Source of the DNA: Candidatus Acidulodesulfobacterium acidiphilum
Lineage (GTDB): Bacteria > SZUA-79 > Acidulodesulfobacterales > Acidulodesulfobacteraceae
Assembly (NCBI GenBank): GCA_008534395.1
Contig: SHMQ01000002.1
Location: 1,557 to 65,556 of the forward strand
Direction of reading: 5' to 3'
DNA length: 64,000 bases
This document shows, in pieces, positions 3,250 through 59,548 of the stretch. A program made the position numbers and the translations under genes. The notes beneath the pieces are model-generated. The model was given only the letters and a program-made list of their open reading frames with translations. It had not been told where the DNA came from and searched no databases. Numbering within the stretch: position 1 is the first letter of the stretch; each line of letters opens with the position of its first letter.

Positions 3250-3521
3250 AATCGTTTTTAAAACCTCCTGTTAGTTGAAGTTAGATACGCATCGGGAATG
3301 TTATTCAAGGTTTTTAAGTCTGTCACACTATCCATTACCCTCTCAGGATTGTTTAATAACAGACCACAGTTGCTACGGACTTGCGTTTTACGGGTCAATT
3401 CCCGATATCCGTAGGTGTGTGCCTTATAGGTTCTCTTGAATAACTGCTGATTAAACATAATTTAATCTCCCTTATCAACCGGCTTTTGCAAGCCTGCGGA
3501 TTTATCCGCGGGTGGTTGACT
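3250..3521 (-). ncRNA. omega-RNA-like scaffold upstream of iscB copy 1 (left end of element at about 3521)
   Basis: Locally GC-richer region directly 5' of iscB. Shares nucleotide blocks with the region upstream of iscB copy 2: ACCACAGTTGCTACGGAC, ATCCGTAGGTGTGT, GGATTGTT, TCAACC...GGTTGACT closing stem, and an internal hairpin CCTGCGGATTTATCCGCGGG. The 66-aa ORF here is probably spurious. Confidence 0.7.
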
Positions 3522-11990: not shown

Positions 11991-12641
11991 TCAAACAACT
12001 GCTATATCTTTCGTAATGTATATCCTATTCCTTCCATTTTCTTTTGCTAAATAGACGTTATTATCCGCTTCTTTTAGTATTTCCTCTTTTGATTTACCGC
12101 TGTCAAAAAAACCCACGCCCATTGAGCAGGTTATTTTCGGTAAATCCGGTATTCTTATCTTTTCTACGGCGTCTTTTAATTTCTTTGTTAAAAACCTTGC
12201 CTCCTGTAATGAGTTCCTTATATGATTAGACGACACCAAAACAAATTCTTCGCCACCATATCTGAAAAATACATCGCTGTTTTTCCTTATATTTTTATTT
12301 ATAGTCTGCGCAAATATTTTAAGCACTTTATCTCCCGCCTCATGTCCATATGTATCGTTAAATTTCTTGAAATGATCTATATCGAAAAAAACTACAAAAA
12401 AAGGCTCGTTGCTAACTTGAGATTCTTTATAAACTTCTTCTAAATATTTATCGAATGTTCTTCTGTTATTCGCTCCGGTCAAGTGGTCTTTTTCCGCCGT
12501 ATCTTTTAATCTTGCAATTTTTTTCTCAGTCTTACTGAATTCTTTTTTTATATTTATAGCGAAGTTATAAACATCATACGAGATAAAAAAATTAAAACCC
12601 GACAATAATACAAAAATTAAAGAATATACGCCGAAATCCAT
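11991..12641 (-). CDS. GGDEF diguanylate cyclase with N-terminal membrane anchor
   Basis: 216 aa. RYGGEEF active-site motif, FDIDHFKKFNDTYGH, GRNR. Confidence 0.85.
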   Translation of the reverse strand: MDFGVYSLIFVLLSGFNFFISYDVYNFAINIKKEFSKTEKKIARLKDTAEKDHLTGANNRRTFDKYLEEVYKESQVSNEPFFVVFFDIDHFKKFNDTYGHEAGDKVLKIFAQTINKNIRKNSDVFFRYGGEEFVLVSSNHIRNSLQEARFLTKKLKDAVEKIRIPDLPKITCSMGVGFFDSGKSKEEILKEADNNVYLAKENGRNRIYITKDIAVV

Positions 12642-20283: not shown

Positions 20284-20839
20284 AAATAACAACCCTTCTG
20301 TCTTTGAGATTGATTTTAGAGATATAGCAACATTTGCCGTATCCGAATATTTTTATATTTTTAAGACCCAAAAATCGTTCTGCGGTTTCGGCTCTTTCCA
20401 ATGCCAATTTATTGTTGTACGCTTTTGTTCCGAAGTGATCCGTATAGCCGGTTATAGATTTCACTTTTATTTTTTTTCCGGCTATAAGCTTTTTAATTTT
20501 ATTAAGTTTTTTTGAAAGCATTTTATTTATTACAAATGAATTAAATTTAAATCCGTAAACCGTTAATTTGACGGGTTTAAACTTAACAACATGTATGGCG
20601 CTTGCGTTTCCTTTAAGCAAATACGCCATCTTTTTTAAAGCTCCCGCTACCGAACCGTCCGCCGTCTTGCTAACCGGCTTTTGAAACTTCGTTAAGCTTT
20701 TATTTCTTTGAAATACGTAAGTTAATGACGGCACGTATGTTGCGCCGTAGTTATAAGCCCGCTGTCTTGTCTTCGCAAAAGCGTTTCCCGCAAAGACAAG
20801 ACAGACCGTTAAAGCTATTAATAAGATTTTTTTCTGCAT
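20264..20839 (-). CDS. OmpA-family peptidoglycan-binding protein
   Basis: 191 aa. Signal peptide. C-terminal ITGYTDHFGTKAYNNKLALERAETAERFL (OmpA_C-like). Confidence 0.7.
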   Translation of the reverse strand: MQKKILLIALTVCLVFAGNAFAKTRQRAYNYGATYVPSLTYVFQRNKSLTKFQKPVSKTADGSVAGALKKMAYLLKGNASAIHVVKFKPVKLTVYGFKFNSFVINKMLSKKLNKIKKLIAGKKIKVKSITGYTDHFGTKAYNNKLALERAETAERFLGLKNIKIFGYGKCCYISKINLKDRRVVIYGMEKF

Positions 20840-22859: not shown

Positions 22860-23570
22860 TTATTTTGCTTCAAAACGCAATATTTTCTGCACTACGGCGT
22901 TAAGCAAACCGCTTGTAAGCTGTCCCGTCCAATGAAAAACTATTTTATGGTGCATTATAAAAAACGATTGAGGAACTTCGTTTATTCCGCCGTAGTCTTG
23001 CAATTCCAAAATATTTGCGTGGACTATAGGATAAGTTAAGCCGTCGTCAAACTGTTCGACGAAGTTTTTGACTCCGTTTTTAAGGACGTTTACGTTTATG
23101 CCTATTATCAATACGTTCTTTTTATTTCTTTTATAAAATCTATTAAGCATAGGCAATTCCGCCCGGCAAGGCGGACACCAAGTAGCCCAAAAATTTAATA
23201 TAATTACTTTTTTATGGATTTTGTTTAAATCGATATATTTATATCCGGAAAGTTTAGGGTTAAACACGTTGCCTCTTATATTTGGAGCCTTTGGCGTATA
23301 AGCGTAGGATTTTTGAGATAAAGCAAAAAAGGCGAGAAATAAAACAATTAACGAAAGAGCAGTCTTAAAATAACTTCTTTGTATAGTATTTTTTTTACGG
23401 ACCAAATAAAAATTTTTATAATGTTGATATATATAATGTTCTTTCGTTAAGGAATCTACAATATCCGATAAAACCTCTTTAGAAAATTTTGACTTCGACT
23501 GTAATGCCGTAAAAGTAATACCCGGATTTTCCGATATAATCTTGCAAACTAATTTTTGATAACTATCCAC
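22860..23570 (-). CDS. TlpA/ResA-like thioredoxin with N-terminal winged-helix-like segment and a TM helix
   Basis: 236 aa. FWATWCPPCRAELP redox motif. The N-terminal 60 aa look like a wHTH (ENPGITFTALQSKSKFSKEVLSDIVDSL). Confidence 0.7.
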   Translation of the reverse strand: MDSYQKLVCKIISENPGITFTALQSKSKFSKEVLSDIVDSLTKEHYIYQHYKNFYLVRKKNTIQRSYFKTALSLIVLFLAFFALSQKSYAYTPKAPNIRGNVFNPKLSGYKYIDLNKIHKKVIILNFWATWCPPCRAELPMLNRFYKRNKKNVLIIGINVNVLKNGVKNFVEQFDDGLTYPIVHANILELQDYGGINEVPQSFFIMHHKIVFHWTGQLTSGLLNAVVQKILRFEAK

Positions 23571-23647: not shown

Positions 23648-24334
23648 TTAAATAACATTAGAAATTTGTCCAAATCCAAGTCCCATTTTATATCCTAAAA
23701 ATTCAGGCAAGCGATAATTTGATATAAAAGATAAATACATAACAGGCAAAATTTTGTCTTTATATTTAATATTTTTAAAAACGAATTGATTATTTTGATT
23801 TTGAAAATAAATTTCTATTTTATCTAACAAATCAAATGGCAATTCGCTATTTAAATATTCTTTTGCTTGAAAAATAACGCTGTCTATTATTCTGCGCTTA
23901 AGATATTTTATAAAATCGGTTTTATCGCTTTTTTGGGAAACGTTAAACAATATCTTATATTCGGTATTATTAACTCCCAGAACGAATGGCGTTCTGCTCT
24001 TATAAAATACCATTTCCTTTTTATCTGCAAACGATAGGTAATTGTCGTAACTTACATCTACCTTATTGATTTTTTCGCCGTAACAAACAAAATTTCCTGA
24101 ATTTAATTTATTGGCTAAATCGCCTATAACATCTATAGACTCTTTATCTGATTTTGCAAATGTGATTTCAAAAATATTTCGATAAGGTTTAGAATAAATA
24201 ACAGGCGATAGACCCTTACCATGATACATAACAAAATCTTTATCTTTTTCATCTGCGATAGAACCAATAAAATTTCTGATATCTCTTGAATCAAAACCGG
24301 ATAAATTATTTGATAACGTAACTTTAATTTTCAT
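23648..24334 (-). CDS. cas6: Cas6-family (Csf5-like) crRNA endoribonuclease
   Basis: 228 aa. C-terminal glycine-rich loop GYKMGLGFGQ. Starts 22 nt after the last CRISPR repeat and has an AGGAGG SD. Confidence 0.65.
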   Translation of the reverse strand: MKIKVTLSNNLSGFDSRDIRNFIGSIADEKDKDFVMYHGKGLSPVIYSKPYRNIFEITFAKSDKESIDVIGDLANKLNSGNFVCYGEKINKVDVSYDNYLSFADKKEMVFYKSRTPFVLGVNNTEYKILFNVSQKSDKTDFIKYLKRRIIDSVIFQAKEYLNSELPFDLLDKIEIYFQNQNNQFVFKNIKYKDKILPVMYLSFISNYRLPEFLGYKMGLGFGQISNVI

Positions 24335-24356
24335 AAAACCTCCTAAAATTAATTTT

Positions 24357-25247
24357 ATTTTAACCTCACATATGTTAAACTCATACTACGATACAAAATG
24401 GTATTCTAATCCAACCTATTACTTTTAACCCCACATATGTTAAACTTATACGCGCAAGGCACGCAGGGAACGCAGCTTGTAAATTCCCTCTTTTAACCTC
24501 ACATATATTAAACTCATACCTATTTAAATAATCCCTTATAGAACGTCTGATAGACTTTTAACCTCACATATATTAAACTCATACAGAGATGCATCCTTGT
24601 CTCATATAGTTGATGGAGAATTCTTTTAACCTCACATATGTTAAACTCATACGAGAATTTTCGTCTCAAATTATTCCTGAAGAACCCGACTTTTAACCTC
24701 ACATATATTAAACTCATACTCTCGAAAATCGACACGCTCTTTTAGTCGGTGTCAGCTTTTAACCCCACATATGTTAAACTTATACCGGTTCTTCTAATGT
24801 ATGAAACCGGCGCCCGTATCGCTTTTAACCCCACATATATTAAACTCATACTCCGCCCAAACCGATGCCGAAAAATTTTTTATGACCTTTTAACCTCACA
24901 TATATTAAACTCATACACAAGTCATCTTATAAATTGTAATTTCAGCTAATCCCTTTTAACCCCACATATGTTAAACTCATACGTTACAAGGACGATATTA
25001 AATTTCCGGCGATAACTACTTTTAACCTCACATATGTTAAACTTATAGTAAACGCTATCCGTTTCCATTATCAAGCCCTTACAAACCTTTTAACCCCACA
25101 TATGTTAAACTTATACCAAGATTTTTTATCGACTTTACTTTGAATATCTTAACTTTTAACCCCACATATGTTAAACTTATACTTGTAGTACCTGTAGCAA
25201 GTTCGGCGTTCGACATTCTTTTAACCCCACATATGTTAAACTTATAC
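24357..25247 (-). CRISPR. CRISPR array: 14 repeats of 30 nt, 13 spacers of 35-38 nt
   Basis: Plus-strand repeat is CTTTTAACC[T/C]CACATAT[G/A]TTAAACT[C/T]ATAC. Repeat starts: 24357, 24422, 24490, 24555, 24623, 24690, 24756, 24822, 24887, 24953, 25019, 25087, 25153, 25218. Strand inferred from three things: co-orientation with the cas genes, identical repeats at the 25.2-kb end, and the GT...AAAAG form of the minus-strand repeat. Confidence 0.95.
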
Positions 25248-25352
25248 CCAAATTTTACCAAATGAAATCAAATAACTGCCGACCAAATCATCTTTTTTCG
25301 TCTGTCGCACTTGAGTAATGCAAAAATATCAGAAGAGCGACAGACAATCAAA

Positions 25353-26411
25353 TTATTCCTGAGCATCATCATCGGCAGATGTTTTAAAATATTTTTCTAT
25401 ATTTATGTTTTCTGCGGATATATTATCAAGCCATTTGTCCGCCTCCGTAATAGCCTTCCGTTGTTCGCTTGTATATTGCGGTTTCACGTTTACGTTAAAC
25501 GTATATTCATCGTCAGACCGGGACTGAAGAAAAGGATTGCCGTAATCTCCGTCTATGAACATATCGTAATTGATTACTCCCCAGCTTTTTTGGGTAGAAC
25601 CTACCCTCGCCGCAGCAAAAATCTCAAGCGTTTTTAGAAGTAAACCATATTCATATTCTTCAATTAGGTATCTGTCAGGCAATTGCATAATCGAGCTATG
25701 CAAAGTTATGCCCGGGACGATGTACTCTTTGCTTATCAACATTTGTATGGAAGTCTTGTCATCTTCTTTATCTACTTTTATCTGTTCCTGATAGGCTTGT
25801 AATTCCTCTAATGTAAATACTTTCGTTGCAGTTACGGAAACATTTCTTAAATCGTCCATATGCGCTATGTTCATTTCTTGTATATACGACGGTTTTTTAA
25901 TATCAAAATTTATCGTCCTATGATCAACTTGTTTTTCAATTATATCAGTAGTAGGTATAAAGTTATTAATGGCTATTTTGCCAGAAATGATAAGTCCTGT
26001 TCCAAATACAGATATTACGGGATTCAACTTTCTTATTTCATTTAAATCTTTTGCATTTCTTTTCGTTTGCTTTTTATCTTTATTCTTATCGGCGTCGACG
26101 TCGTTGTCACTCTCGCTTTTATTGTCTTTATTTTTTTTCTTGTTTTTTTTCTGGTTTACGCCGCCTCCATTAGACATCAAAGAAAAATCGGCGGGCGTAA
26201 GCTTTATGCCCTTGGATAGGGCTTTCTCCAACAAAAGCTCAGTCATAATCCTGCGCAATTTTCCGTTTACTCCGTTTGCAGGCAGATAACCTACCTCGTA
26301 AAGAGTGTTCCCAATACACACAACTAATTTTTTGATGTAAATGTTGCCTTTGTCGGCACTATCGATAATGCCTACCGGTGTTTTAGTGACTGCCCTAATG
26401 TCAATTCTCAT
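25353..26411 (-). CDS. csf2: Csf2 (type IV Cas7-like RAMP) with a lysine/aspartate-rich insertion
   Basis: 352 aa. LPANGVNGKLRR and NPVISVFGTG RAMP-like motifs. Lies between dinG and the array. Confidence 0.65.
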   Translation of the reverse strand: MRIDIRAVTKTPVGIIDSADKGNIYIKKLVVCIGNTLYEVGYLPANGVNGKLRRIMTELLLEKALSKGIKLTPADFSLMSNGGGVNQKKNKKKNKDNKSESDNDVDADKNKDKKQTKRNAKDLNEIRKLNPVISVFGTGLIISGKIAINNFIPTTDIIEKQVDHRTINFDIKKPSYIQEMNIAHMDDLRNVSVTATKVFTLEELQAYQEQIKVDKEDDKTSIQMLISKEYIVPGITLHSSIMQLPDRYLIEEYEYGLLLKTLEIFAAARVGSTQKSWGVINYDMFIDGDYGNPFLQSRSDDEYTFNVNVKPQYTSEQRKAITEADKWLDNISAENINIEKYFKTSADDDAQE

Positions 26412-26442
26412 AATTTGATACCTCCATAAATTAAATTTAAAA

Positions 26443-28215
26443 TTAGATTAATTTGCCTATGTTTTTAAAAATTCTATTTAATCTGGCTTTGATTCTTTCG
26501 TCGTTTATTCTTGCGTCAAGTATGTATATATCGCCTTTATCGTCAGGTCTTCTCTGAAGCCTTCCGAGACTTTGGCGGGTTATAAACAGCATGTCGTTAT
26601 AAACGGTATTCCAGTAATATCCGTCATTGAAAGCTTTCTTGTCTTGCATGTCTTTGTCGTTGATCGGGGGAAATAAAAGTTTTGTTATATATAACTTTTC
26701 AAGTTCGTCTCCGGGCAAATCGATGCCCGTTGCATAAGTTCTCGTTCCTATCAATATTCCGCCCTCAAGTTTAAATTTATTAATAGTTTGGGCTTGCGTC
26801 ATCGTATAGTCAGCTTTAATGATGTTTGTATTTGGCAAAAGTTTTATTAATGCAGAATGTAGCGCCTTAACTTCCGCATAACTTCCGGCTATTACCAACG
26901 AATTTTTGTTTTCAAACGTTTTATTTATGTAACTGGCTATGCCGTCAACCCATTCCGCATCCGGCGTCCCGTCGTCAGACATATTTTTATTTTTCTTTAC
27001 AAGATAATCAGTGTGTATCTTGATATTATCCGTAGGAAATAGTCTTGGTTCGCTTTTAATTATTACTTTATCTTTTAGTCCGCTAAGACCAAGTTTTTTA
27101 ATTATATAATCGCCGTTATCCATTTCTATGCTTTGAGAAAATTCTTTTTTATCGGCAGGCGGCGGGACAGTAAAAAGAGTTCCCGATACGCCGACAAATC
27201 CAGATAAACTTTTAAAAAAATTATATAAACCCGATTGAACGCTTTGCGACTGAAAATGGACAGTCGGATAACCCTTAGCAGGCGAATAATACAAAGAAAT
27301 ATTTTCTTCGCTATTAACTATGGTGTTAAGTTCTGTATACTCCTGTAAAAAAATCTTTGCGTATCTGTCGGTTTTTAGTTCTTTAATTAATTTCGTTAAT
27401 TTTTTTCGAGACGACGCAAATTTAGTTAAATCGTCCAGATAATCTTTAAATAAGCGCTTGTCCGTTACATACGAGTCGATTTTATTTTCGTCCTTATATT
27501 TTTTAAGTAATACAGACGATTCTTTATAGATTTTACCGAGATATGTTTTTGCCGTTCTGTCAATTTTGCTTTTTCCTATTATTCTTTTTAGCGAAGTTGT
27601 AAATCGTGAAACAGAAAAACTCGAAGTAGAAATTAATTTCTGAGCTTCGTACATTTTATCCACTTCGTCGGACAATATGTAATATTCCGATAAATCGACG
27701 TTTTTATTGTATCTAAGCATTATAAGAAAAACATGATTGGTGATTGATACATCATATTCAGATACGCTGTCCAAATCTTGCCTGTTGTCTGCATGATAGA
27801 TATTTGATACTACTAATTTGTCGTCGTCGTTTAAAAGGCAATTCCTGTACAACTCTTCAAACGTTATATTTTTATTTAAAGTTTTAGCGTATTCAATTAC
27901 TTTATCCGGATACGTAAAATAAGAATAAAACTCGTCGTCTATTTTGTTTAAATCTAAATAATTTTCCGCTCCGATTACTATGCCTACTTTCAAATTAGGG
28001 AATCTTTCCTTGAAATCTAAAAATAGCTTGTCGGCTAAAGAATTGGTAAAAGTAGATATTATAACCTTCCTGTCTTTAAGAAGCTCCACTGCGATATGAG
28101 GCAATAAATAACTTGATTTGCCGAATCCGGTTGATAATTCATGCAAATGAATAAATTTTCTCCTTGCATTTTCTACTGCTATTTTTAAAATTTCCGTCTG
28201 CTTTTTGCTTAACAT
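26443..28215 (-). CDS. dinG: Csf4/DinG-family (XPD-like) helicase
   Basis: 590 aa. STGFGKSS Walker A, SDEVDKMY (DEAH-type box), ATGIDLPG, LGRLQRRPDDKGDIYILD (motif VI). Confidence 0.85.
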   Translation of the reverse strand: MLSKKQTEILKIAVENARRKFIHLHELSTGFGKSSYLLPHIAVELLKDRKVIISTFTNSLADKLFLDFKERFPNLKVGIVIGAENYLDLNKIDDEFYSYFTYPDKVIEYAKTLNKNITFEELYRNCLLNDDDKLVVSNIYHADNRQDLDSVSEYDVSITNHVFLIMLRYNKNVDLSEYYILSDEVDKMYEAQKLISTSSFSVSRFTTSLKRIIGKSKIDRTAKTYLGKIYKESSVLLKKYKDENKIDSYVTDKRLFKDYLDDLTKFASSRKKLTKLIKELKTDRYAKIFLQEYTELNTIVNSEENISLYYSPAKGYPTVHFQSQSVQSGLYNFFKSLSGFVGVSGTLFTVPPPADKKEFSQSIEMDNGDYIIKKLGLSGLKDKVIIKSEPRLFPTDNIKIHTDYLVKKNKNMSDDGTPDAEWVDGIASYINKTFENKNSLVIAGSYAEVKALHSALIKLLPNTNIIKADYTMTQAQTINKFKLEGGILIGTRTYATGIDLPGDELEKLYITKLLFPPINDKDMQDKKAFNDGYYWNTVYNDMLFITRQSLGRLQRRPDDKGDIYILDARINDERIKARLNRIFKNIGKLI

Positions 28216-28225
28216 TTCATCCCCC

Positions 28226-29668
28226 TTAATTGAATGGATAAATAATTTTTAGTAAATTAAGAATATCGTGCGTGTATTTAGCCTTAAAACCGATATATTT
28301 GTTTTTGGAATATAAATAATCCGTTTTGTCTTCAGAATTATCCAGTTCCTCTACCGCTTTTAGAAACATTTCGGTATCTATCGTCATAACGCCGTATTGC
28401 TTGTTTGCTATTTGAAACATTGCATTACTGACATTGACGCTTGACTTGAAAACAAGATGTGCGCCGTTGGAATCATTTTTTATAGTTATAAGAAACGGCG
28501 GCGTTTTATCTTTAATATTTTTGTAAAATTGAAGTTTTGTTTCCCTAATTTTATTTTTGATTAAGTTGTCGAATTTTTCTTTTGTCATACCTGCCGGACG
28601 CTGAGTATTTTCTTTCACCGCTTTATCTAAATTTCCGCCGCCTATATAGATTTTTTCATTGTTAGAAATAAACAAATTTGCCGTTTTATTATAATTTTCG
28701 CTGTGTTCGATTGCCTTGCAATAATCGCAGACATAATCTCCCGCTTCTACGAATCCAAAATCCGTAAAAGTCTTCGGAAATATTTTTTCTTTTTCTTTTG
28801 TATCTCTTTTAATTCCGTCACTCCCGCCGCACATTATACAAATATGTTTTTTTTCAGATGTTTCAGGAACAAACGGCTTTTTTTCGTACGTGAAAGAAAA
28901 CATATCCTTTGTGTTTTTGTACATAAATTCCGTTGAACTCATAAAATCCATTGTGGTAATACTTTTAAATCCTTTATCCCAAGAAACGTCTTTTTCTTCC
29001 GTGTAATACATAGGCGGCATATAACAAGCAACCTTATTTTCTTTTAGCCAATAAGGCGGATAAAATCTATAAAACATAACTCTATGGGTATTTACCGAAA
29101 ATTTAGAACATGGAAGAGGTTTAGAAACAGTAGTTGCATTTAATAAAATACCTTTGTTTTCATCGATTACTTCTACTTCAGGATCATCGTCCGCAAATCC
29201 AAAACCTATTTTTGCTTTTTTTCCAAGATATTTAACTTCTTTTAATAAATCCAATATTTTGTCTTTATGTCCCGTTACATAAAAATAAATTTTCGGCAAA
29301 ACCAATATTGGAAAAATTAAATTATAGGCCTTATACTGACCTTTATCGGTAATAAATTTTTTATCGGTAAAAAACCCATGCTTTTTATATTCTTCGTGTT
29401 TCATAGACTTAAACATCCTGTATTCACTTTTGTAGATAGGGCTATCTTTGTCTGCGTACCATATAGAACCTGATATAATTCCGTTTTTTATTTCGAGAAA
29501 CTTGCCTATCTCGTCCAAAAAATCTTCCGTTTTAATAAAATCCGTAATATTCTTTTCCTCTTTGTATTTTTTAAAAAAGACAGAAAGCAAAATAGAATCT
29601 ATCGTCGTAAATCTATTTTGAAATATTGCAGGACTTTCAAGATTAAAAGTTATTTTTAAATTTTCCAC
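28226..29668 (-). CDS. candidate Cas5(Csf3)-Csf1(Cas8-like) fusion protein
   Basis: 480 aa with a GTG start after an AAGGAGAA SD. N-terminus MENLKITFNLESPAIF...IDSILLS plus YLGKKAKIGFGF loop are RAMP/Cas5-like. Central CIMCGG...CDYC zinc ribbon as in Csf1. Confidence 0.55.
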   Translation of the reverse strand: MENLKITFNLESPAIFQNRFTTIDSILLSVFFKKYKEEKNITDFIKTEDFLDEIGKFLEIKNGIISGSIWYADKDSPIYKSEYRMFKSMKHEEYKKHGFFTDKKFITDKGQYKAYNLIFPILVLPKIYFYVTGHKDKILDLLKEVKYLGKKAKIGFGFADDDPEVEVIDENKGILLNATTVSKPLPCSKFSVNTHRVMFYRFYPPYWLKENKVACYMPPMYYTEEKDVSWDKGFKSITTMDFMSSTEFMYKNTKDMFSFTYEKKPFVPETSEKKHICIMCGGSDGIKRDTKEKEKIFPKTFTDFGFVEAGDYVCDYCKAIEHSENYNKTANLFISNNEKIYIGGGNLDKAVKENTQRPAGMTKEKFDNLIKNKIRETKLQFYKNIKDKTPPFLITIKNDSNGAHLVFKSSVNVSNAMFQIANKQYGVMTIDTEMFLKAVEELDNSEDKTDYLYSKNKYIGFKAKYTHDILNLLKIIYPFN

Positions 29669-29726
29669 TTCTTATTCTCCTTATTTTTATTTATATTGAA
29701 CTAGCGAAAGCCGGAATATCAAAAAT

Positions 29727-29897
29727 CTACGCCGCTTCCTTTTTCTTTCCATAAAATTCAATTCCTTTGTTAGTTAATTCGTGAATTAAGGTCTCAAAAC
29801 TTATTTCAATTCCTGAATTTTTTTTATAAAAGCTTTGAATTTTCTTTAATCTCTTGACGTCTTCTTTGCTTAAATCGATTTTTTCTTTTTTTATCAT
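29727..29897 (-). CDS. small ribbon-helix-helix-like protein upstream of the cas operon
   Basis: 56 aa counted from the ATG at 29897, with a GGGGG SD. Paralogous to the three RHH genes at 44568..45301 (GIEISFETLIHEL versus GITLMARDIILKG). Confidence 0.5.
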   Translation of the reverse strand: MIKKEKIDLSKEDVKRLKKIQSFYKKNSGIEISFETLIHELTNKGIEFYGKKKEAA

Positions 29898-34473: not shown

Positions 34474-35304
34474 TTAAAACAAATTTAACTGTTCTCCTTT
34501 ATTTTTTATTCTTCTTTTAACTGTTTTTTGCTTATTTTTCTTAAAATTACAGTTACTTGCACTTCTTAAAGCGCCGCCGACGCCCGCGGTTAAAGCAAGC
34601 GATTTCTTAAGTGCATCCGTAACGCCAAATCCGCCGTCTTCTAAAATTCTGCAAAACTCGTCCATTATAGGAATTCCGTCAGGGGTAACCATATTTACGA
34701 TATTAGGAACGTTTTCCATAGCCAAAGCTTTAGGCTTCATCTCGGATATAAACCTTGCATATTCAAAAACCAAACTATTTCTGGGATCCAATACGTTGCG
34801 TTTTCCAAGAGTCGAAAATCCTTGACACGGTGGAGAGCCGACCATTAAATCCAACTCGCCGGGTTTAATTCCTAATTCGCTCATAATCCTATCCGACGAC
34901 AATTTCCTTACGTCTCCGACGAATATATATTTAACCCCTTCAAACCACGCGGGGCATACTTTATGACGATTATTGCCGGAAACTTCCATATGAACGATGC
35001 CGTCTTCCGTTTTAGTCATCATTTTTTGAAAATACTTTTCGGCGCGTTCCCTGTCGGATTCTTCGACAAATATCATTTTAAGCGGATACGCCCCTAAATT
35101 TATAGAATATGTATGAACGGCCGCTATGTCCCATTCTGCCGCCGCTATTACGTTAATACCCGCATTGATTAAACCTAAGCTAAATCCGCCAATGCCCGAA
35201 AAGAAATCCATCGCTATCAAACGTTTTTCGGGTAAACAAGTTTTTGGAATAATTAAACCTGACGAATTTCTATAAAAATTATCTTCGTTAAAAAGTAAAT
35301 TCAT
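34474..35304 (-). CDS. DNA cytosine-5 methyltransferase, N-terminal catalytic part only (motifs I-VII)
   Basis: 276 aa. Motif I DFFSGIGGFSLG, motif IV GSPPCQGFS, motif VI MENVPNI. I could not find motif VIII (QxRxR), a TRD, or motifs IX/X. Confidence 0.7.
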   Translation of the reverse strand: MNLLFNEDNFYRNSSGLIIPKTCLPEKRLIAMDFFSGIGGFSLGLINAGINVIAAAEWDIAAVHTYSINLGAYPLKMIFVEESDRERAEKYFQKMMTKTEDGIVHMEVSGNNRHKVCPAWFEGVKYIFVGDVRKLSSDRIMSELGIKPGELDLMVGSPPCQGFSTLGKRNVLDPRNSLVFEYARFISEMKPKALAMENVPNIVNMVTPDGIPIMDEFCRILEDGGFGVTDALKKSLALTAGVGGALRSASNCNFKKNKQKTVKRRIKNKGEQLNLF

Positions 35305-35343
35305 ATTAATTTACGCCTCCGCAAAGAGCGGTATCTGCCCCTG

Positions 35344-36159
35344 CTAGTTTAAATCGTAATTAGCCCAGACGGTTTCCGTCCGTTCAGGACAGTTATTTTT
35401 ATTCCTATACCTCAAGCTATTAGCAAGACAATTAAAATCCTGCCTGTAAAAGCCTGAAAGCCTTTTGTTATAAATATCGTTATCGTAGCCGCTTAAAAGC
35501 CATTTACCTTTAATACTTAAAAGAATATCGATAAGGTCGTTGTGGTCTTTATCCGTCATCTCGAACATATAACCGCCGCTCTTGCGGGAACTTGCCACGT
35601 AAGGCGGGTCGAGATAGAAAAACGTATCGGGGCGGTCCCAGTTAGCGATTAATTTTCTGAAATCCAAATTATCAATATAAACATCCGAAAGTCTTTTGTG
35701 TATTAAATTTAATTTATCAATGCTATTTCTAATGTATTTTGGTATATTCACGTCTATCGAAAACCGCCAACCGGCTCCTTTCTTGGCGTTAGGATGTTCG
35801 CCGTTTATCGTTGATTTAATCAGATAATAAAACCTTACCGCCCGCTCTGCTTTGTTAAGCTTATCCGTCCGCATATCACGATATTCGTAATAGCATTCGC
35901 GGGAATACGGCAATAAACTTATTTTCTCTTGAAATTTCTTAAACAGCTTTCCGTCCGCTATAACCTTAAAAAAATTATAAAGTTCGCCGTCTATATCGTT
36001 ATAAACTTCGATTTCGGACGGCTCTTTATTTATCAGTATCGCGCCGGACCCGCCGAAAACTTCGACGTAAGTTTTATGTTTCGGAAATAAAGGCATTAAC
36101 TTATCCGCCATAAAAAATTTGCCGCCGAAGTAGCCGAATGGAGTTAATTTTGTTTTCAT
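35344..36159 (-). CDS. dam: Dam-family (D12 class) N6-adenine DNA methyltransferase
   Basis: 271 aa. FGYFGGK...VEVFGGSGA and FYLDPPY motifs. Confidence 0.8.
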   Translation of the reverse strand: MKTKLTPFGYFGGKFFMADKLMPLFPKHKTYVEVFGGSGAILINKEPSEIEVYNDIDGELYNFFKVIADGKLFKKFQEKISLLPYSRECYYEYRDMRTDKLNKAERAVRFYYLIKSTINGEHPNAKKGAGWRFSIDVNIPKYIRNSIDKLNLIHKRLSDVYIDNLDFRKLIANWDRPDTFFYLDPPYVASSRKSGGYMFEMTDKDHNDLIDILLSIKGKWLLSGYDNDIYNKRLSGFYRQDFNCLANSLRYRNKNNCPERTETVWANYDLN

Positions 36160-38556: not shown

Positions 38557-38729
38557 AAATTAATCTTTTATATTTTTATATTATTTTTTGCAAGATAATC
38601 TTTATTTTTGCATAATTATTTCCGATTATTAAATAGAGAGATTTTATATCGCTTTCCTTTGATTTTTGCTTGACAATAAAGGCTATAAAAAATACAATAA
38701 ATATCAATGATTTCACGGGGGAAATAAAT

Positions 38730-39635
38730 ATGGAAGAAGTCGGTTTAATAGAACCGGTCGTATCGGTATCGTCGGTATCTGGTCCTTATTCTTTTAATAT
38801 ATTACCCGAATCAATTTCCGAACAGCCATGCGAAATTATTCCTTATAAGCGCAAACCTAATCTAAACGAGCTATTAAATAAAATTATTAACGAAGATGCG
38901 TTAATCGGATTAAAAAATATTCCGGACGAATCAGTCGATGTCGTTATTACCGATCCGCCTTACGGCATTGCCAAAAAAAATTCGTTTAAAGATAAAAGCC
39001 ACGGGACATTCAAGGCTTTAGATTCCGAATGGGATATTTTTCCTTCGAAAAATCATTATATCAAGTTTACCGAAAACTGGATTAAAGAATGTTGTAGAAT
39101 ATTAAAGCCGACAGGCTCTATCGCGGTTTGGGGAAGCAGGATAAGCATTTTCGACGTTCAACCCGTTCTCTCGCAATTTTTCCCGAAATTTCTGGATATG
39201 CTTACGTGGATAAAAAGGGATTCTCCGCCGAATATGACCCGAAGAGGAATGGCTCCGTCCACGGAATTTTGCCTTATATTTACCAAAGCAGAAAAAGGCT
39301 GGACTTTTAATCACGACGATATTAAAAGGTATAACGACGGCAAACAAATGAGAAATTACGTAGATATTCAAAGGACGATGCCTGCCGAGGAAAGAACCGG
39401 ACACCCTACTCAAAAGAAAATCGAAACGCAACTTCTTTTAGTAGAAATGTTAAGCAATAAAAACGAGATAGTATTAGATCCATTTACGGGAAGCGGAACG
39501 TTGCCTGTTGCCTGTCTTAAAACCGACAGAAATTTTATCGGATTTGAATTAAACAAGGAATATTATGCCGTCGCTAAAAATAGAATAAAAAAACTTATAA
39601 ATGTTAACGATAAACACAAAAGAAACCGATATTGA
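38730..39635 (+). CDS. beta-class N6A/N4C DNA methyltransferase (type II R-M)
   Basis: VITDPPYGI (motif IV) precedes VLDPFTGSGT (motif I). Start set at the ATG at 38730 after a GGGGGA SD. TTGACA-17-TACAAT promoter at 38670..38698. Confidence 0.8.
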   Translation: MEEVGLIEPVVSVSSVSGPYSFNILPESISEQPCEIIPYKRKPNLNELLNKIINEDALIGLKNIPDESVDVVITDPPYGIAKKNSFKDKSHGTFKALDSEWDIFPSKNHYIKFTENWIKECCRILKPTGSIAVWGSRISIFDVQPVLSQFFPKFLDMLTWIKRDSPPNMTRRGMAPSTEFCLIFTKAEKGWTFNHDDIKRYNDGKQMRNYVDIQRTMPAEERTGHPTQKKIETQLLLVEMLSNKNEIVLDPFTGSGTLPVACLKTDRNFIGFELNKEYYAVAKNRIKKLINVNDKHKRNRY

Positions 39636-46055: not shown

Positions 46056-48614
46056 TTATGAAAATTCAACAAAGGTATCTATAACTTTATCTAAATCTTT
46101 TTTAAGTTCATTTTTAATCTGTTCAATTAAATTATATTTTTTTGCCAACTCTCTTTGCCTACTTAAATCAAATTCCCCTTTCTTATCAACTGGTATTTTA
46201 ATACTTATTTTTTCAATATGGGTTTTTTTAAGTCTCTTATTTCCTTCTCCGACAGAATAATTAGGGAGTTCATTATCTAATAAATATTTTAGGAATTCAT
46301 AATCTAATTTATCTTTAAACTGTTCTTTAATGGTTAATAATCCACAATGGGTAGTTAAACTAAATTTTCCATTTCTATAAAATACTCTACCTGCATATCC
46401 GTCAATAGTCCAAGTTAAACCTTCTTTATCGTAATCATAACTGTCTATTTTTGCTATTTCTCCATTATTTTTAGTCTGACCTGAATAAACCGGATATTTT
46501 CCTTGATGTGTTGAAAAGTATTTATGGTTATATTTTGAAATACCAAGATTTATATTAAATACATCTGTTATAGCTACTTTTTTTAATTTAGTTTCTTTTC
46601 TTTCTTCAAGTAAGTTTATTTCTTGTTTGAATTCTTTTAAATTATCTGAGGTTTCATCAAGCATAGAAGAAAAATCAAGGATATTTACTTTATTTTCTTT
46701 TTCAACAATACCTAATTTTATCTTTTCTTTTTTAGACCAAAATCTATCAATTACCCAATTATCTTCGGGTTTGAAATTTTTAATTGGTAGTGTTTTACAT
46801 CTTAAAGAATTTGTTTTAAAGGCATTTTTAGCTCCTTTAAATTGATTAAATAAATCAACTGCTTCGTTCAAATCATTTTTCTCTGGATTTTCAAATCTGT
46901 AAATATCTAAACTTTCTCCAATATTACTCACTAAATATAAAAACACAGGAGTGTCTTGAATATCTGAAGAACTATTTTTTTTTGTAATTGCTAATATATA
47001 AGTTTTTTTAATGTTTGTAAAAAAAGTTTTTGTCGGCAAAGAGATAATGGCATCAATAACACATTCATCGGTAATAAATTTTCTTAAATTCTTATCGTTT
47101 ATTCTATTTAAAATCCCATCAGGGATAATAACAAATGCTTTTCCATTTTTTTTTAATGCCCTTATTATCCACTCTATAAATAGTCCTTCTACACCCATAG
47201 CATTTATTTTATAATAGCTCTCTAATTTGCTTTTTACTATTTCTTCTTTTAGGTTGCTACTACCAGTAGTTACATATGGAGGATTTGTTAAAATCCAATC
47301 ATATTTTTCTTTAACATCATCAGCTAATGTTCCAAGTATAGAATTAGTCTTCAAAATAAAACTTTTATTGAATAAATCTGAAAATTCTTTAGTTAAATTA
47401 GGATGTTTTTTAATTAAATCGGAAAAATAAATAAGCATATTTGCTTTTGCCAAGATAATTGTTTTTTGTTCTTCTGTGTCAAACCCCTTGTCGAAGCCAT
47501 AAATTTCTATTTTTGCTTCTATTTTATTATTTATAACTTTATAAAATCTATCAATATTATTAGCAATGATTTCCAATGGAAATTTTCCAACGCCGCAAGC
47601 AGGATCGCATATTTTATCACCTTCTTTTACATCTGTCATTCTAACTATTGCCTTAACAACTTTAAGAGGTGTAAAAAATTGCCCCCAATTTTTTTTACTT
47701 ATGCTCTGCTTCATAAAACTTTCAAATAATCTGCTTTTAAATTCATAATCAATATTCTCTAATTTCTTATAATCCCTAAATCTATATAGAACTTTTTTAA
47801 AAACAGTGCTATATCCTTCGACTGCTTTTTGGTCTTTACTTACAAATATTGTTCCGTTAATTATTGTCGTATGATCTATAGGATTTTCCTTAAATAATTC
47901 TTTTATTTTTGGTCTTATTATCTTCGCATATTGCTCTAAAACTTCTTCATCTGTATTTTTTTTGTACATATCAATTAAATCATAAAAACCAAACATGCCC
48001 TGTAACACACCTAAATCACTTAAATATTTAAAAATAAATAATTCAATAAAGGTATATAAACAGTTTTCAGGAGTAGCACCACTAACCATCCAAATATCTT
48101 GCCAGATTTGTTTTGCTAATTCAGTAGGATTAATAAGCTCAATTGATTTTAGAGTAGAATTGGTTTCGCTTATAGAGTTATTTATTTTATTAATTAACTC
48201 TATAATATCTTTATCTTTAGGGTTAAAAATATAATTTAAATCGTTATGATTTTCATCTTTAATAATCTCGCCATTTAAAGCATTAACCCATATAGTTTCT
48301 GTTGTATCTGTAATAATTAGAATTTTTGTTAATTTTTGTGCTACTTCTATTTCTTGTTTTAGTGCTTTTTGTTTTTGATTAATTGTTTTAAATTTAGAAG
48401 GTCTTTTGTTTTCAATTATTGCTATAACATTATCTCCTTCTGTAATAAGTCCATCAACTTTTTTCTTTTCAATTTTTTCCCCATAATCAATATTTTTGAT
48501 TATGCCGTTTTCTTTAAGCGATTTTATTGTGGTCGAACCGATATTATAAAAATTCCACCCCCCAATTTTTTCAGGGTTTTTAATTAGATCTCTTTGTAAT
48601 AATTCTTCGCTCAT
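46056..48614 (-). CDS. type IIG-like single-chain restriction-modification enzyme (nuclease + N6A methylase + TRD)
   Basis: 852 aa. N-terminal VDGLITEGDNVIAIIENKRP (PD-ExK-like). FFTPLKVV...DPACGVGKF (motif I). LTNPPY (motif IV). HsdS-like C-terminal TRD. Confidence 0.75.
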   Translation of the reverse strand: MSEELLQRDLIKNPEKIGGWNFYNIGSTTIKSLKENGIIKNIDYGEKIEKKKVDGLITEGDNVIAIIENKRPSKFKTINQKQKALKQEIEVAQKLTKILIITDTTETIWVNALNGEIIKDENHNDLNYIFNPKDKDIIELINKINNSISETNSTLKSIELINPTELAKQIWQDIWMVSGATPENCLYTFIELFIFKYLSDLGVLQGMFGFYDLIDMYKKNTDEEVLEQYAKIIRPKIKELFKENPIDHTTIINGTIFVSKDQKAVEGYSTVFKKVLYRFRDYKKLENIDYEFKSRLFESFMKQSISKKNWGQFFTPLKVVKAIVRMTDVKEGDKICDPACGVGKFPLEIIANNIDRFYKVINNKIEAKIEIYGFDKGFDTEEQKTIILAKANMLIYFSDLIKKHPNLTKEFSDLFNKSFILKTNSILGTLADDVKEKYDWILTNPPYVTTGSSNLKEEIVKSKLESYYKINAMGVEGLFIEWIIRALKKNGKAFVIIPDGILNRINDKNLRKFITDECVIDAIISLPTKTFFTNIKKTYILAITKKNSSSDIQDTPVFLYLVSNIGESLDIYRFENPEKNDLNEAVDLFNQFKGAKNAFKTNSLRCKTLPIKNFKPEDNWVIDRFWSKKEKIKLGIVEKENKVNILDFSSMLDETSDNLKEFKQEINLLEERKETKLKKVAITDVFNINLGISKYNHKYFSTHQGKYPVYSGQTKNNGEIAKIDSYDYDKEGLTWTIDGYAGRVFYRNGKFSLTTHCGLLTIKEQFKDKLDYEFLKYLLDNELPNYSVGEGNKRLKKTHIEKISIKIPVDKKGEFDLSRQRELAKKYNLIEQIKNELKKDLDKVIDTFVEFS

Positions 48615-59269: not shown

Positions 59270-59548
59270 GTTTAAGACGAATACCCGCGGGTTTCGTCCT
59301 CTCCTGCCGGAGAGTAGGTTCTCTTCGGGATTGTTATTAACCGTTTTTAAGCCTGCCGCACTAAGAGTTTCCTCTTTGTTTAACGACAAACCACAGTTGC
59401 TACGGACTAAAGAAGTATCCGTAGGTGTGTCGGTTATCCGTCTTGTTAATAACTTCTGCATTTTTTTCATAATTAATGCCCCCTAATCAACCAGTTGCCC
59501 TTGTGCCTCACGACTCAAGCCCCGTCCGAAAGGGCGGGGTGATTGACT
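59270..59548 (-). ncRNA. omega-RNA-like scaffold of iscB copy 2
   Basis: Same conserved blocks as 3250..3521. The internal hairpin is replaced by CCCCGTCC-GAAA-GGGCGGGG, so the sequence differs but a hairpin is retained. Confidence 0.7.

What the first reader, a model, noticed from the sequence alone, without database searches (positions are those of the whole stretch)
23648..29897. Compact DinG-type (type IV) CRISPR-Cas locus on a conjugative backbone, with the array placed between cas7 and cas6
Four co-directional minus-strand genes and a 14-repeat array make up the locus. The genes are a 480-aa RAMP-plus-zinc-ribbon protein, a 590-aa XPD/DinG helicase, a 352-aa Cas7-like protein and a 228-aa Cas6-like protein. 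I found no cas1, cas2, cas3, cas10 or HD nuclease anywhere in the 64 kb. That absence, together with DinG and a plasmid/T4SS context, is the established signature of type IV systems. The gene order and content differ from the classical IV-A layout as I recall it (dinG, cas6, csf1, csf2, csf3, then array). Here there is no separate cas5. The array sits 105 nt after the cas7 stop, and cas6 starts only 22 nt after the last repeat with its own AGGAGG SD. Pre-crRNA and cas6 mRNA would therefore be one transcript that Cas6 itself has to cut. A small RHH gene lies directly upstream.
Basis: partly seen in the sequence, partly recalled or inferred. Interest (0 to 1): 0.85.

Follow-up and report, generated by a model that had tools for sequence, protein, structure and literature searches.

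The report
Type IV-E CRISPR locus, conjugative element
This is a real, intact, nuclease-free CRISPR system of the rare, already proposed subtype IV-E (Cas5-Cas8 fusion, DinG helicase, Cas7, Cas6), carried on a conjugative element; it has an unusual gene order, and relatives carry spacers against this same family of elements.

Summary
Four co-directional minus-strand genes and a 14-repeat array lie at 23648-29668, and every stated distance is exact. The interpretation (type IV, DinG-type, on a conjugative backbone) is supported but can be made more precise. The locus belongs to the putative subtype IV-E of Pinilla-Redondo et al. 2020.

The "missing cas5" is the N-terminal half of the 480-aa protein, a Csf3(Cas5)-Csf1(Cas8) fusion. 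This is shown by subtype-specific HMMs, a PDB profile search and a confident structure model. The DinG helicase motifs are intact. No cas1, cas2, cas3, cas4 or cas10 is present in the 64 kb.

The order fusion, dinG, cas7, array, cas6 is conserved in four further loci (55-96% identical proteins). More distant IV-E loci do not have it, so it is a clade-specific permutation. Array polarity, a conserved leader hairpin and a candidate 5'-CCN PAM were recovered.

A relative's oldest spacer matches the window's own thioredoxin-like gene at 33/36 positions. This points to competition between sibling conjugative elements.

Whether cas6 is co-transcribed with the array is plausible but untested. The RHH-like gene upstream is not part of the cassette. 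Verdict: new member of a known, uncharacterised kind; moderate interest.

The parts
28226..29668 (-). csf3-csf1 (cas5-cas8) fusion gene, 480 aa. Cas5-like RAMP domain about residues 1-220. Csf1 domain about residues 240-480 with a CxxC...CxxC zinc ribbon (C277, C280, C314, C317).
   Evidence: PADLOC Csf3-Csf1_0_IVE 5e-62 over residues 1-446, Csf3_0_IV 2.7e-29 (1-219), Csf1_0_IV 2.6e-14 (268-443). Family profile against PDB: Csf1 8rc3_G 6.6e-7 and Csf3 7xfz_B 6.6e-6. AF2 model pLDDT 88.6. Foldseek: IV-A Csf3 8rc3_F 6.5e-11 and Csf1 7xg1_A 1.9e-4. Standalone Csf3 and Csf1 proteins match profile positions 1-215 and 259-483 separately.
26443..28215 (-). csf4 / CasDinG-type SF2 helicase, 590 aa. 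It has Walker A (TGFGKS), motif II (DEVD) and motif VI (RQslGRLqR). It has only one Cys, so no Fe-S cluster.
   Evidence: PADLOC Csf4_3_IVE 4.8e-59 over residues 1-572. Pfam Helicase_C_2 4.6e-20. PDB DinG/XPD hits. Motif conservation across 9 IV-E DinGs. Cys count.
25353..26411 (-). csf2 (cas7) backbone subunit, 352 aa, with a K/N/D-rich insertion at about residues 85-122.
   Evidence: PADLOC Csf2_0_IV 2e-27, full length. TIGR03115 4e-10, below cut-off. Family profile A3 against PDB: IV-A Csf2 8rc2_A 9e-16, 7xfz_C 3.4e-15, 8rc3_A 3.2e-13; IV-B Csf2 7jhy_e 2.2e-7. The AF2 model failed (pLDDT 30).
25248..25352 (-). Leader, 105 nt. It contains a conserved hairpin (about 25303-25347) followed by a T-rich tract with TTGATT.
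   Evidence: Alignment of five loci, including one whose proteins are only 38% identical, shows invariant GTCG...TTTTT...GACAGA. RNAalifold gives 12 pairs, 3 of them with compensatory changes. L004 has a second copy of the leader start after cas6, in front of a second array.
24357..25247 (-). CRISPR array: 14 repeats of 30 nt (GTATAAGTTTAACATATGTGGGGTTAAAAG in gene sense) and 13 spacers of 35-38 nt. The leader end is next to cas7. The terminal repeat next to cas6 is degenerate (...AAAAT).
   Evidence: Polarity comes from L002 against L003: they share 17 of the cas6-proximal spacers, with one extra internal spacer in L003, and differ at the cas7-proximal end. The repeats are essentially unstructured.
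23648..24334 (-). cas6 (IV-E type, Cas6b-like), 228 aa, with AGGAGG 6 nt upstream of the ATG. It has a C-terminal glycine-rich loop GYKMGLGFG and a single His (H38).
   Evidence: PADLOC Cas6_1_IVE 2.7e-33, full length. Pfam Cas6b_C 4.5e-5, below cut-off. Family alignment A4. No PDB sequence match.
23077..23112 (+). Protospacer inside the neighbouring thioredoxin-like gene (22860-23570, minus strand). It is matched by the oldest spacer of the sibling arrays L002/L003. The 5' flank is CCG.
   Evidence: 33/36 identity, with mismatches at positions 9, 23 and 36. The same site in L005 also has a CCG flank. A second protospacer about 40 nt away (23114-23150, minus strand) is matched 31/37 by L004 spacer 7 and has CCT and CCA flanks.

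Best explanation
The locus is a complete, probably functional CRISPR-Cas system of the putative subtype IV-E, carried by an F-type conjugative element (plasmid or ICE) of an AT-rich Gram-negative host that may belong to the Campylobacterota. Shown here: the gene content (Cas5-Cas8 fusion, CasDinG-type helicase, Csf2/Cas7, Cas6b-like Cas6), the array and its polarity, the absence of adaptation and nuclease genes, intact helicase motifs, and targeting of sibling elements by related arrays. Inferred by homology with type IV-A: the array is transcribed from the cas7-side leader in the same direction as the cas genes. Cas6 cuts each unstructured repeat and leaves a short repeat-derived 5' handle (...GTTAAAAG). 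About six Csf2 subunits coat the 35-38-nt spacer. The Cas5-Cas8 fusion caps the 5' handle and reads a 5'-CCN-like PAM. The complex forms an R-loop on double-stranded DNA of a rival element and recruits the DinG helicase. DinG translocates 5'-3' and silences transcription or replication without cutting DNA. New spacers are supplied in trans by a host adaptation module, probably I-B-like. Because cas6 lies 22 nt after the last repeat with no terminator in between, it is probably expressed at least partly from the pre-crRNA transcript.
For: Subtype-specific HMMs for all four proteins: 5e-62, 4.8e-59, 2e-27 and 2.7e-33. The fusion is confirmed three independent ways. The Cas7 family profile hits solved IV-A and IV-B Csf2 at 9e-16 to 2e-7. 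DinG motifs I, Ia, II and VI are conserved across nine family members. There is no Cas1/2/3/4/10 in the window. The T4SS context is established, and the closest TraC proteins are on Campylobacter and Nitrosophilus plasmids at 39% identity. Array polarity and ongoing spacer turnover: L002 and L003 encode near-identical Cas proteins (identical phmmer scores for fusion and Cas7) but differ by 6 versus 2 leader-end spacers. Two window spacers (S03, S12) have same-register counterparts in other lineages with mismatches at every third base, 5/5 and 6/8, which indicates independent acquisitions from coding genes. The L002/L003 oldest spacer matches the window's thioredoxin-like gene 33/36. The four protospacer copies carry 5' CCG, CCG, CCT and CCA, and both DNA strands are targeted. 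There is no terminator-like site between the fusion gene and the end of cas6. IV-A mechanism: CasDinG is a 5'-3' helicase with a vestigial Fe-S domain (PMC10450177), IV-A interference is nuclease-independent (PMC11519345), and spacers are acquired in trans (bioRxiv 10.1101/2023.06.23.546257); these are abstracts seen. The IV-E definition is from PMC7038947.
Against: There are no expression data and no biochemical data for any IV-E system. None of the window's 13 spacers has a protospacer in 72,556 plasmids, 50,697 phages, or the viral and metagenome collections, so its own targets are unknown. NCBIfam Csf models match only below their curated cut-offs. The Cas7 structure model failed, and Cas6 has no solved relative by sequence. 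Motif II is DEVD rather than DEVH. The PAM rests on only two independent protospacers. The 2025 reference classification lists only three type IV subtypes and does not mention IV-E.
Confidence: 0.85

Rival explanations
1. The position of cas6 after the array is a neutral rearrangement. Cas6 is made from its own promoter overlapping the terminal repeat, and no functional coupling exists between pre-crRNA processing and cas6 expression.
For: Gene order in the fusion family is highly shuffled: cas6 first in L007, between the fusion and cas7 in pICON, after cas7 in L008-L010, and the array between the fusion and cas7 in L011. In the window and in L005 the terminal repeat ends in ...TAAAAT, a -10-like hexamer about 22-27 nt before the cas6 start. 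In L004 cas6 is followed by a second leader and array, which suggests recombination between repeats.
Against: The order is kept in five distinct loci down to about 63% protein identity. The gaps are only 22-77 nt. No -35 element was recognisable and the promoter scan listed no site at the terminal repeat or in the repeat-cas6 gap (the only cas6-start hit is a weak 9/12 match whose first hexamer is the ATG itself); promoter-like sites in the region were not above chance overall. No terminator separates the array from cas6.
Confidence: 0.45
2. The locus is better filed as a divergent type IV-A variant than as a separate subtype IV-E. This is a matter of nomenclature, because the official classification recognises only IV-A, IV-B and IV-C.
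For: The 2025 classification counts three type IV subtypes. The gene content (DinG, Cas6, Cas7, Cas5, Csf1, array) equals that of IV-A. The DinG also matches a IV-A model at 1.2e-43. PMC7038947 calls IV-E an outgroup clade related to IV-A.
Against: For the fusion, DinG and Cas6 the best model is the IV-E-specific one. Separate csf1 and csf3 genes, as found in IV-A, are absent. Cas6 is Cas6b-like and not Csf5, I-E or I-F type.
Confidence: 0.12
3. The system serves mainly as a programmable repressor of genes of its own element or host (natural CRISPRi) and not as a weapon against rival elements.
For: A IV-A1 system naturally represses a chromosomal gene (PMC11551745 abstract). Window spacer S09 has 15+8 nt of collinear identity to the window's own cas7-leader junction. 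No external targets were found for the window's spacers.
Against: No window spacer has a full match anywhere in the 64 kb. The S09 match is interrupted by the 45-nt hairpin. The only full protospacers found are cross-element ones: a sibling array against the window's thioredoxin-like gene. L004's own copy of its target has 9 mismatches, including seed positions.
Confidence: 0.12
4. The locus is an inactive relic that is merely carried along by the element.
For: It has no adaptation genes. The repeats are a mosaic of two sequence variants. No targets are known.
Against: All four ORFs are intact with conserved catalytic and structural motifs. Gene spacing is tight (10, 31, 105 and 22 nt). The cassette is 96.7% identical to a sibling on a different backbone. 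There is leader-end spacer turnover between near-identical loci.
Confidence: 0.05

Closest known systems
Putative subtype IV-E CRISPR-Cas (Pinilla-Redondo et al. 2020, PMC7038947); exemplar found here: Campylobacter concisus plasmid pICON, NZ_CP021643 (locus L001)
   Same: Csf3-Csf1 fusion, diverged DinG, Csf2, a homologous Cas6 (phmmer 3e-28), an associated array of 30-nt repeats, and a plasmid with a T4SS coupling protein and a UvrD-like helicase nearby.
   Different: Only 29% identity in the fusion protein. In pICON dinG is divergent and the order is fusion, cas6, cas7, array. In the window all genes are co-directional and cas6 follows the array. The pICON repeat folds into a 9-bp hairpin (-5.1 kcal/mol), whereas the window repeat is unstructured.
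Type IV-A1 (Pseudomonas oleovorans) and IV-A3 (Klebsiella pneumoniae) Csf complexes with CasDinG (PDB 8rc3, 8rc2, 7xg1; PMC11519345, PMC10450177)
   Same: Homologous Csf2, Csf3, Csf1 and DinG by profile and by fold. No nuclease and no adaptation module. Located on conjugative elements. Plasmid-directed spacers. The probable mechanism is R-loop formation plus helicase-dependent silencing.
   Different: Csf1 and Csf3 are one polypeptide here. Cas6 is Cas6b-like rather than Csf5, Cas6e or Cas6f type. The repeat is unstructured with a I-B-like 3' end. The candidate PAM is CCN. The array is embedded before cas6. The NCBIfam IV-A equivalog models score far below their cut-offs.
Type I-B adaptation and processing modules (Cas6b; Cas4-Cas1-Cas2)
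   Same: The Cas6 C-terminal domain resembles Cas6b. The unit is a 30-nt repeat plus a spacer of about 36 nt. From my own knowledge, CCN-type PAMs occur in I-B systems. Distant IV-E-like loci (L008) carry their own cas4-cas2-cas1.
   Different: No Cas3, Cas8b or Cas5/Cas7 of type I is present, and no adaptation genes are in this window. A link to a I-B helper is an inference.

Membership tests
Type IV CRISPR-Cas (class 1) | Csf2-family Cas7 backbone protein | tested here: met
   PADLOC Csf2_0_IV 2e-27. Family profile against solved Csf2: 9e-16.
Type IV CRISPR-Cas (class 1) | Csf3 (Cas5) and Csf1 (small Cas8-like) subunits | tested here: met
   Both are present as domains of one protein.
Type IV CRISPR-Cas (class 1) | No Cas3 or Cas10 effector nuclease and, typically, no cas1/cas2 | tested here: met
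   Pfam scan of all window ORFs of 60 aa or more. This covers the 64-kb window only; the rest of the element and the host genome are unseen.
Putative subtype IV-E (PMC7038947) | Csf1 fused to Csf3 | tested here: met
   Csf3-Csf1_0_IVE 5e-62, full length. Fold matches to Csf3 and Csf1 in the two halves.
Putative subtype IV-E (PMC7038947) | DinG helicase diverged from the IV-A DinG | tested here: met
   The best model is Csf4_3_IVE at 4.8e-59, against IV-A models at 1.2e-43 to 3.7e-8. No phylogeny was made.
Putative subtype IV-E (PMC7038947) | Associated CRISPR array and a Cas6 | tested here: met
   14-repeat array. Cas6_1_IVE 2.7e-33.
Subtype IV-A (A1/A2/A3) | Separate csf1 (or cas8-like) and csf3 genes, and a Csf5, Cas6e or Cas6f-type Cas6 | tested here: not met
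   There is a single fused gene. Cas6 matches the IV-E and Cas6b models only. TIGR Csf equivalogs score 33-89 bits against cut-offs of 130-400.
Subtype IV-D | RecD-family helicase in place of DinG | tested here: not met
   The helicase is DinG/XPD type.
Active CasDinG-type helicase | Intact SF2 motifs I, II and VI, and a vestigial (Cys-less) Fe-S domain | tested here: met
   TGFGKS, DEVD and RQxxGRLxR are conserved. One Cys only. ATPase and helicase activity are not testable with these tools.
Functional CRISPR-Cas system | Cas6-dependent production of mature crRNAs and target interference | not testable with these tools
   The evidence is indirect only: leader-end spacer turnover between siblings and PAM-flanked protospacers in sibling elements.

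The most novel reading that the evidence does not exclude
In this clade the operon has been circularly permuted so that cas6 is the 3' cistron of the pre-crRNA. Cas6 would then have to cleave the terminal repeat to release its own mRNA, which would form a feedback loop tying Cas6 dosage to array transcription. In addition, these IV-E systems would be aimed chiefly at sibling conjugative elements, including a rival's own cas7-leader junction (spacer S09). That would make them a kin-exclusion device and not a general defence.
Probability: 0.2. Interest if true: 0.55.

Novelty: new member of a known kind. Interest (0 to 1): 0.4.

Why it matters
IV-E is a rare branch of type IV: about 35 clusters at 50% identity among 1.84 billion representative proteins. 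It was proposed in 2020 from "a few examples" and is absent from the 2025 reference classification. I found no experimental work on it. This window supplies a complete, compact IV-E cassette of about 6 kb with a clear leader, known array polarity, a candidate PAM and identifiable natural targets in sibling elements. Those are the items needed to reconstitute the system. The single-chain Cas5-Cas8 reduces the effector to three proteins plus DinG, which is attractive for nuclease-free CRISPRi tools. The cross-targeting between sibling conjugative elements is direct sequence evidence, outside the Enterobacteriaceae, for the idea that type IV systems serve plasmid competition.

Tried and rejected
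- Megablast of the locus against plasmids: no match.
- All 13 spacers against plasmids and phages with blastn word 11: no match.
- Degenerate codon-aware patterns for the two "hot" spacers S03 and S12 in metagenome and viral contigs: 0 hits.
- The repeat core in viral contigs: 0 hits.
- AF2 model of Cas7 from a 6-sequence alignment: pLDDT 30, discarded. It was replaced by a family profile against PDB.
- Cas6 single sequence and family profile against PDB: nothing.
- RHH assignment for the 74-aa ORF: no Pfam, NCBIfam or PADLOC support. Its homologue in L002 is 2.6 kb away from the cassette.
- The idea that the 94-aa ORF upstream of the fusion gene in L012 is a cas6 remnant: rejected, no similarity.
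- L007 spacer 4 against window 20771-20806: only 21/36, rejected as chance.
- Spacers of the distant loci L001 and L008-L011 against all held DNA: only 14-18-nt chance matches.
- The hairpin after cas7 as an intrinsic terminator: rejected, because it is followed by an A-run and not a U-run.
- The promoter scan was uninformative: 37 sites against 32 expected.
- Host taxonomy could not be established. The relatives are unclassified "MAG: bacterium" records and cluster look-ups gave no names.

Full report
OBSERVATION

- 29668..28226, 480 aa, GTG start
- 28215..26443, 590 aa
- 26411..25353, 352 aa
- 24334..23648, 228 aa

Between the third and fourth ORF lies an array of 14 repeats of 30 nt with 13 spacers of 35-38 nt. 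Allowing three mismatches, the repeat occurs 14 times in the window against 0 in 100 shuffles.

The gaps along the coding strand are 10, 31, 105 and 22 nt. The last gap contains AGGAGG 6 nt upstream of the cas6 ATG. The window has 34.5% G+C.

WHAT THE PROTEINS ARE

PADLOC holds subtype-specific CRISPRCasTyper models, and it gave full-length matches for all four proteins:
- 480 aa: Csf3-Csf1_0_IVE, 5e-62
- 590 aa: Csf4_3_IVE (DinG), 4.8e-59
- 352 aa: Csf2_0_IV, 2e-27
- 228 aa: Cas6_1_IVE, 2.7e-33

The NCBIfam Csf equivalogs matched the right proteins but far below their curated cut-offs. Pfam saw only Helicase_C_2 and a sub-threshold Cas6b_C. The family is therefore remote from the well-studied IV-A proteins.

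I tested the fusion in three further ways.
- A profile of 34 family members hit solved Csf1 (8rc3_G, 6.6e-7, profile positions 273-448) and solved Csf3 (7xfz_B, 6.6e-6, positions 104-166).
- An AlphaFold2 model (pLDDT 88.6, pTM 0.88) matched IV-A Csf3 chains (8rc3_F 6.5e-11, 8rc2_F, 7xg1_B; target TM 0.65-0.72) and IV-A Csf1 chains (7xg1_A 1.9e-4, 8rc3_G 5.6e-4).
- An exhaustive profile search of 1.84 billion representatives found about 35 full-length fusion clusters. Below them, standalone proteins of about 210-250 aa matched only positions 1-215, and proteins of about 260-310 aa matched only positions 259-483.

The Cas7 structure model failed (pLDDT 30). A 12-member family profile nevertheless hit solved IV-A Csf2 at 9e-16, 3.4e-15 and 3.2e-13, and IV-B Csf2 at 2.2e-7.

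Cas6 has no solved relative by sequence. It does carry the Cas6 glycine-rich C-terminal loop (GYKMGLGFG) and a single, largely conserved histidine, H38.

The helicase keeps motif I (TGFGKS), motif Ia, motif II (DEVD here, DEVH in several relatives, with D183 and E184 invariant) and motif VI (RQxxGRLxR). It has one cysteine, so it has no Fe-S cluster. This agrees with the vestigial Fe-S domain of CasDinG (PMC10450177 abstract).

ABSENCES AND CONTEXT

I scanned every remaining ORF of 60 aa or more against Pfam, as concatenated packs. No Cas1, Cas2, Cas3, Cas4 or Cas10 family appeared. Two weak signals need mention:
- a sub-threshold HD_5 hit in ORF 499-1245
- a true GGDEF cyclase at 11991-12641, which weakly echoes the Cas10 palm domain

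Downstream on the same strand is an F-type transfer region: TraL, TraE, TraK, TraB/TrbI, TraV, TraC, TraH and TraG_N, plus DsbC-like and S26 peptidase genes. Upstream are RusA, DUF6475 and a phage-type replisome organiser. Further along are three DNA methyltransferases and a fused methylase-specificity gene, a LexA/CI-like repressor, a DnaG-type primase, an SNF2 helicase, SSB and RtcB.

The window has no tRNA. The closest TraC proteins in PLSDB are on Campylobacter upsaliensis, C. iguaniorum and Nitrosophilus plasmids at 39% identity. This is only a weak hint to the host.

COMPARISON WITH WHAT IS KNOWN

Pinilla-Redondo et al. (PMC7038947) proposed subtype IV-E from "a few examples". They described an outgroup related to IV-A whose DinG has diverged and whose Csf1 is fused to Csf3. 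It was found in Campylobacter and Bacteroides, sometimes on plasmid-like elements, and is array-associated.

A 2024 review lists IV-A to IV-E. The 2025 reference classification counts only three type IV subtypes and does not mention IV-E. I found no experimental study of IV-E.

The only plasmid in PLSDB that encodes a relative of the fusion protein is C. concisus pICON, at 29% identity.

GENE ORDER

Using the window proteins as queries against all fetched loci and repeat searches, I found these orders:
- Window, L002, L003, L004 and L005: fusion, dinG, cas7, array, cas6. The fusion is 63-73% identical in these four loci, and their gaps from the last repeat to cas6 are 27-77 nt (22 nt in the window). 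L012, the 96% sibling, shares fusion, dinG, cas7 but its contig ends before the array. Another 55% homologue (P0005) exists but I did not examine its context.
- L007 (38% identity, also next to TraL, TraE, TraK and TraB): cas6, fusion, dinG, cas7, array. This is a circular permutation of the window's order.
- pICON: dinG divergent, then fusion, cas6, cas7, array.
- L008-L010 (about 30% identity): cas7, cas6, fusion, array, with dinG divergent or distal.
- L011: cas6, fusion, array, cas7.

The array-before-cas6 layout is therefore real and conserved within one clade. It is not a property of IV-E as a whole, and gene order in this family is unusually fluid.

In L004 cas6 is followed by a second copy of the leader start, 100 masked bases and a second array.

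ARRAY POLARITY, LEADER AND REPEATS

Read in the gene-sense direction, the repeat ends ...GGTTAAAAG, and all relatives end ...TTAAAAG...TTTAAAG or ...TTTAGAAC. The repeat next to cas6 is degenerate.

L002 and L003 encode near-identical Cas proteins. They share 17 of the cas6-proximal spacers, with one extra internal spacer in L003. At the cas7-proximal end they have six and two private spacers respectively. New spacers therefore enter at the cas7 side, and acquisition is recent.

The 105-nt leader contains a hairpin (about 25303-25347) that is conserved in five loci, including L007. It has 12 predicted pairs, three of them with compensatory changes. It is followed by an A-run, so it is not an intrinsic terminator.

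The repeats themselves are essentially unstructured: -1.5 kcal/mol, z-score -0.16. This is consistent with a Cas6b-like enzyme. No terminator-like site lies between the fusion gene and the end of cas6.

TARGETS

None of the window's 13 spacers matches the window itself, the plasmid or phage collections, or, for the two tested, the metagenome and viral collections.

Comparison between arrays was informative. Two window spacers align in the same register with spacers in other lineages:
- Window S12 against L004 spacer 13: 31/36, with all five mismatches at positions divisible by three.
- Window S03 against L002 spacer 7: 28/36, with six of eight mismatches at third positions.

This is the signature of independent acquisitions from diverged alleles of the same protein-coding sites.

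The oldest spacer of L002 and L003 matches the window's plus strand at 23077-23112 at 33/36. This site lies inside the thioredoxin/ResA-like gene that follows cas6 in the window, L002, L004 and L005. The same site in L005 also matches. L004 spacer 7 matches the opposite strand about 40 nt away.

The four protospacer copies are preceded by CCG, CCG, CCT and CCA. L004's own copy of its target differs at nine positions, including the PAM-proximal ones.

This suggests a 5'-CCN PAM on the side expected for class 1 systems, DNA rather than RNA targeting because both strands are hit, and rivalry between sibling conjugative elements. It agrees with the plasmid-targeting bias reported for type IV (PMC7038947).

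CASSETTE BOUNDARY

L012 is 96.7% identical to the window from 29667 to 25280, but it has unrelated genes upstream. The cassette therefore begins at the fusion gene. The 74-aa "RHH" ORF is not part of it, and no profile supports an RHH fold for it.

MECHANISM

Shown:
- gene content
- intact motifs
- array polarity
- spacer turnover
- PAM-flanked protospacers in sibling elements

Inferred from IV-A (PMC11519345, PMC10450177, bioRxiv 10.1101/2023.06.23.546257):
- Cas6 processing of the pre-crRNA
- a Csf2 filament capped by the fusion protein
- R-loop formation and DinG recruitment
- nuclease-free silencing of the target
- spacer acquisition in trans

Expression of cas6 from the pre-crRNA transcript is plausible, given the 22-nt gap and the absence of a terminator. 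It is untested, and the terminal repeat's ...TAAAAT could serve as a -10 element.

VERDICT

This is a genuine, intact type IV-E CRISPR-Cas cassette on a conjugative element. It is a new and divergent member of a kind that has been described but never characterised, with a clade-specific gene order. Interest is moderate.

Noticed in passing
window 2008-3520 (-) and 58088-59547 (-): There are two IscB-like genes (Pfam RRXRR + HNH; 413 and 460 aa). Each is preceded by an Rfam HEARO RNA (3280-3520 at 113.8 bits; 59314-59547 at 123 bits). From my own knowledge this is the arrangement of IscB-omegaRNA (OMEGA) systems. A TnpB (IS605 OrfB) gene lies at 54197-55480.
   Followed up: partly
window 25303-25347 (-), leader between cas7 and the array: A 45-nt hairpin is conserved in the leaders of five loci, including one whose proteins are only 38% identical. 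It has 12 pairs, 3 with compensatory changes, and a T5 loop motif. It is not a terminator. L004 repeats it after cas6, in front of a second array. Its function is unknown; it could be a promoter or regulator site, or an integration signal.
   Followed up: partly
window spacer S09, 24653-24689 (-), against 25348-25362 and 25295-25302: Spacer S09 equals 15 nt at the window's own cas7 stop codon region followed directly by the 8 nt that lie just after the 45-nt leader hairpin. The protospacer therefore looks like the cas7-leader junction of a sibling IV-E locus that lacks the hairpin. That would be a CRISPR locus aimed at a rival's CRISPR locus.
   Followed up: partly
window 23077-23150, inside the thioredoxin-like gene 22860-23570 (-): The window's own element carries near-matching protospacers for spacers in sibling arrays (L002/L003 oldest spacer 33/36; L004 spacer 7 31/37). 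The 5' flanks are CCG and CCT. The gene encodes a weak N-terminal wHTH match (sub-threshold HTH_24/MarR) plus a ResA/TlpA-like thioredoxin domain. It is a conserved neighbour of cas6 in this family.
   Followed up: yes
L008 9557-17554 (ENA ERZ17990834 NODE_241) and L009 9565-10020: Distant IV-E-like loci (fusion about 32% identical) carry cas4-cas2-cas1 immediately after the fusion gene. Next comes an array of 55+ repeat copies (tool count, possibly spanning more than one tract) and a 760-aa DinG-like gene. L009 keeps cas4 only. A type IV system with its own adaptation module is unusual.
   Followed up: no
L004 5450-7421 and L011 9465-10268: There are other embedded-array layouts in the family. 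L004 has leader-array-cas6-leader-array, and after array 2 a decayed copy (24/31) of the L002 oldest spacer. L011 has the array between the fusion gene and cas7.
   Followed up: partly
window 24357-25247: The repeats are a mosaic of two variants (GTATAAGTTTAACATATGTGGGG... and GTATGAGTTTAATATATGTGAGG...) interleaved along the array. This suggests recombination between arrays in addition to leader-end acquisition. L002 also carries one spacer twice (positions 4 and 19).
   Followed up: no
window 11991-12641 (-) and 499-1245 (-); L010 836-2798: A GGDEF diguanylate cyclase (7e-41) sits inside the tra operon, and an ORF with a weak HD_5 (HD-GYP-like) match lies at the window's end. L010, another IV-E locus, also has HD/HD_5 and GGDEF genes nearby. 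This may indicate c-di-GMP signalling linked to these elements.
   Followed up: no
window 34474-36159 (-), 38670-39635 (+), 46056-48614 (-): The element carries several DNA methyltransferases: C5, Dam-like D12, N6_N4, and a fused N6_Mtase + specificity-domain protein of 852 aa. No obvious cognate endonuclease was identified. They may be anti-restriction functions or type IIG-like functions.
   Followed up: no
window 26050-26160 (-), Cas7 residues about 85-122: The Csf2 protein has a lysine/asparagine/aspartate-rich low-complexity insertion. It is variable among relatives and appears as short tandem repeats in the DNA.
   Followed up: no
L007 9377-11120: In the 38%-identity relative the dinG gene is called as two ORFs (56 aa and 536 aa) that both match the window's DinG. 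This may be a frameshift, a pseudogene or an assembly error.
   Followed up: no
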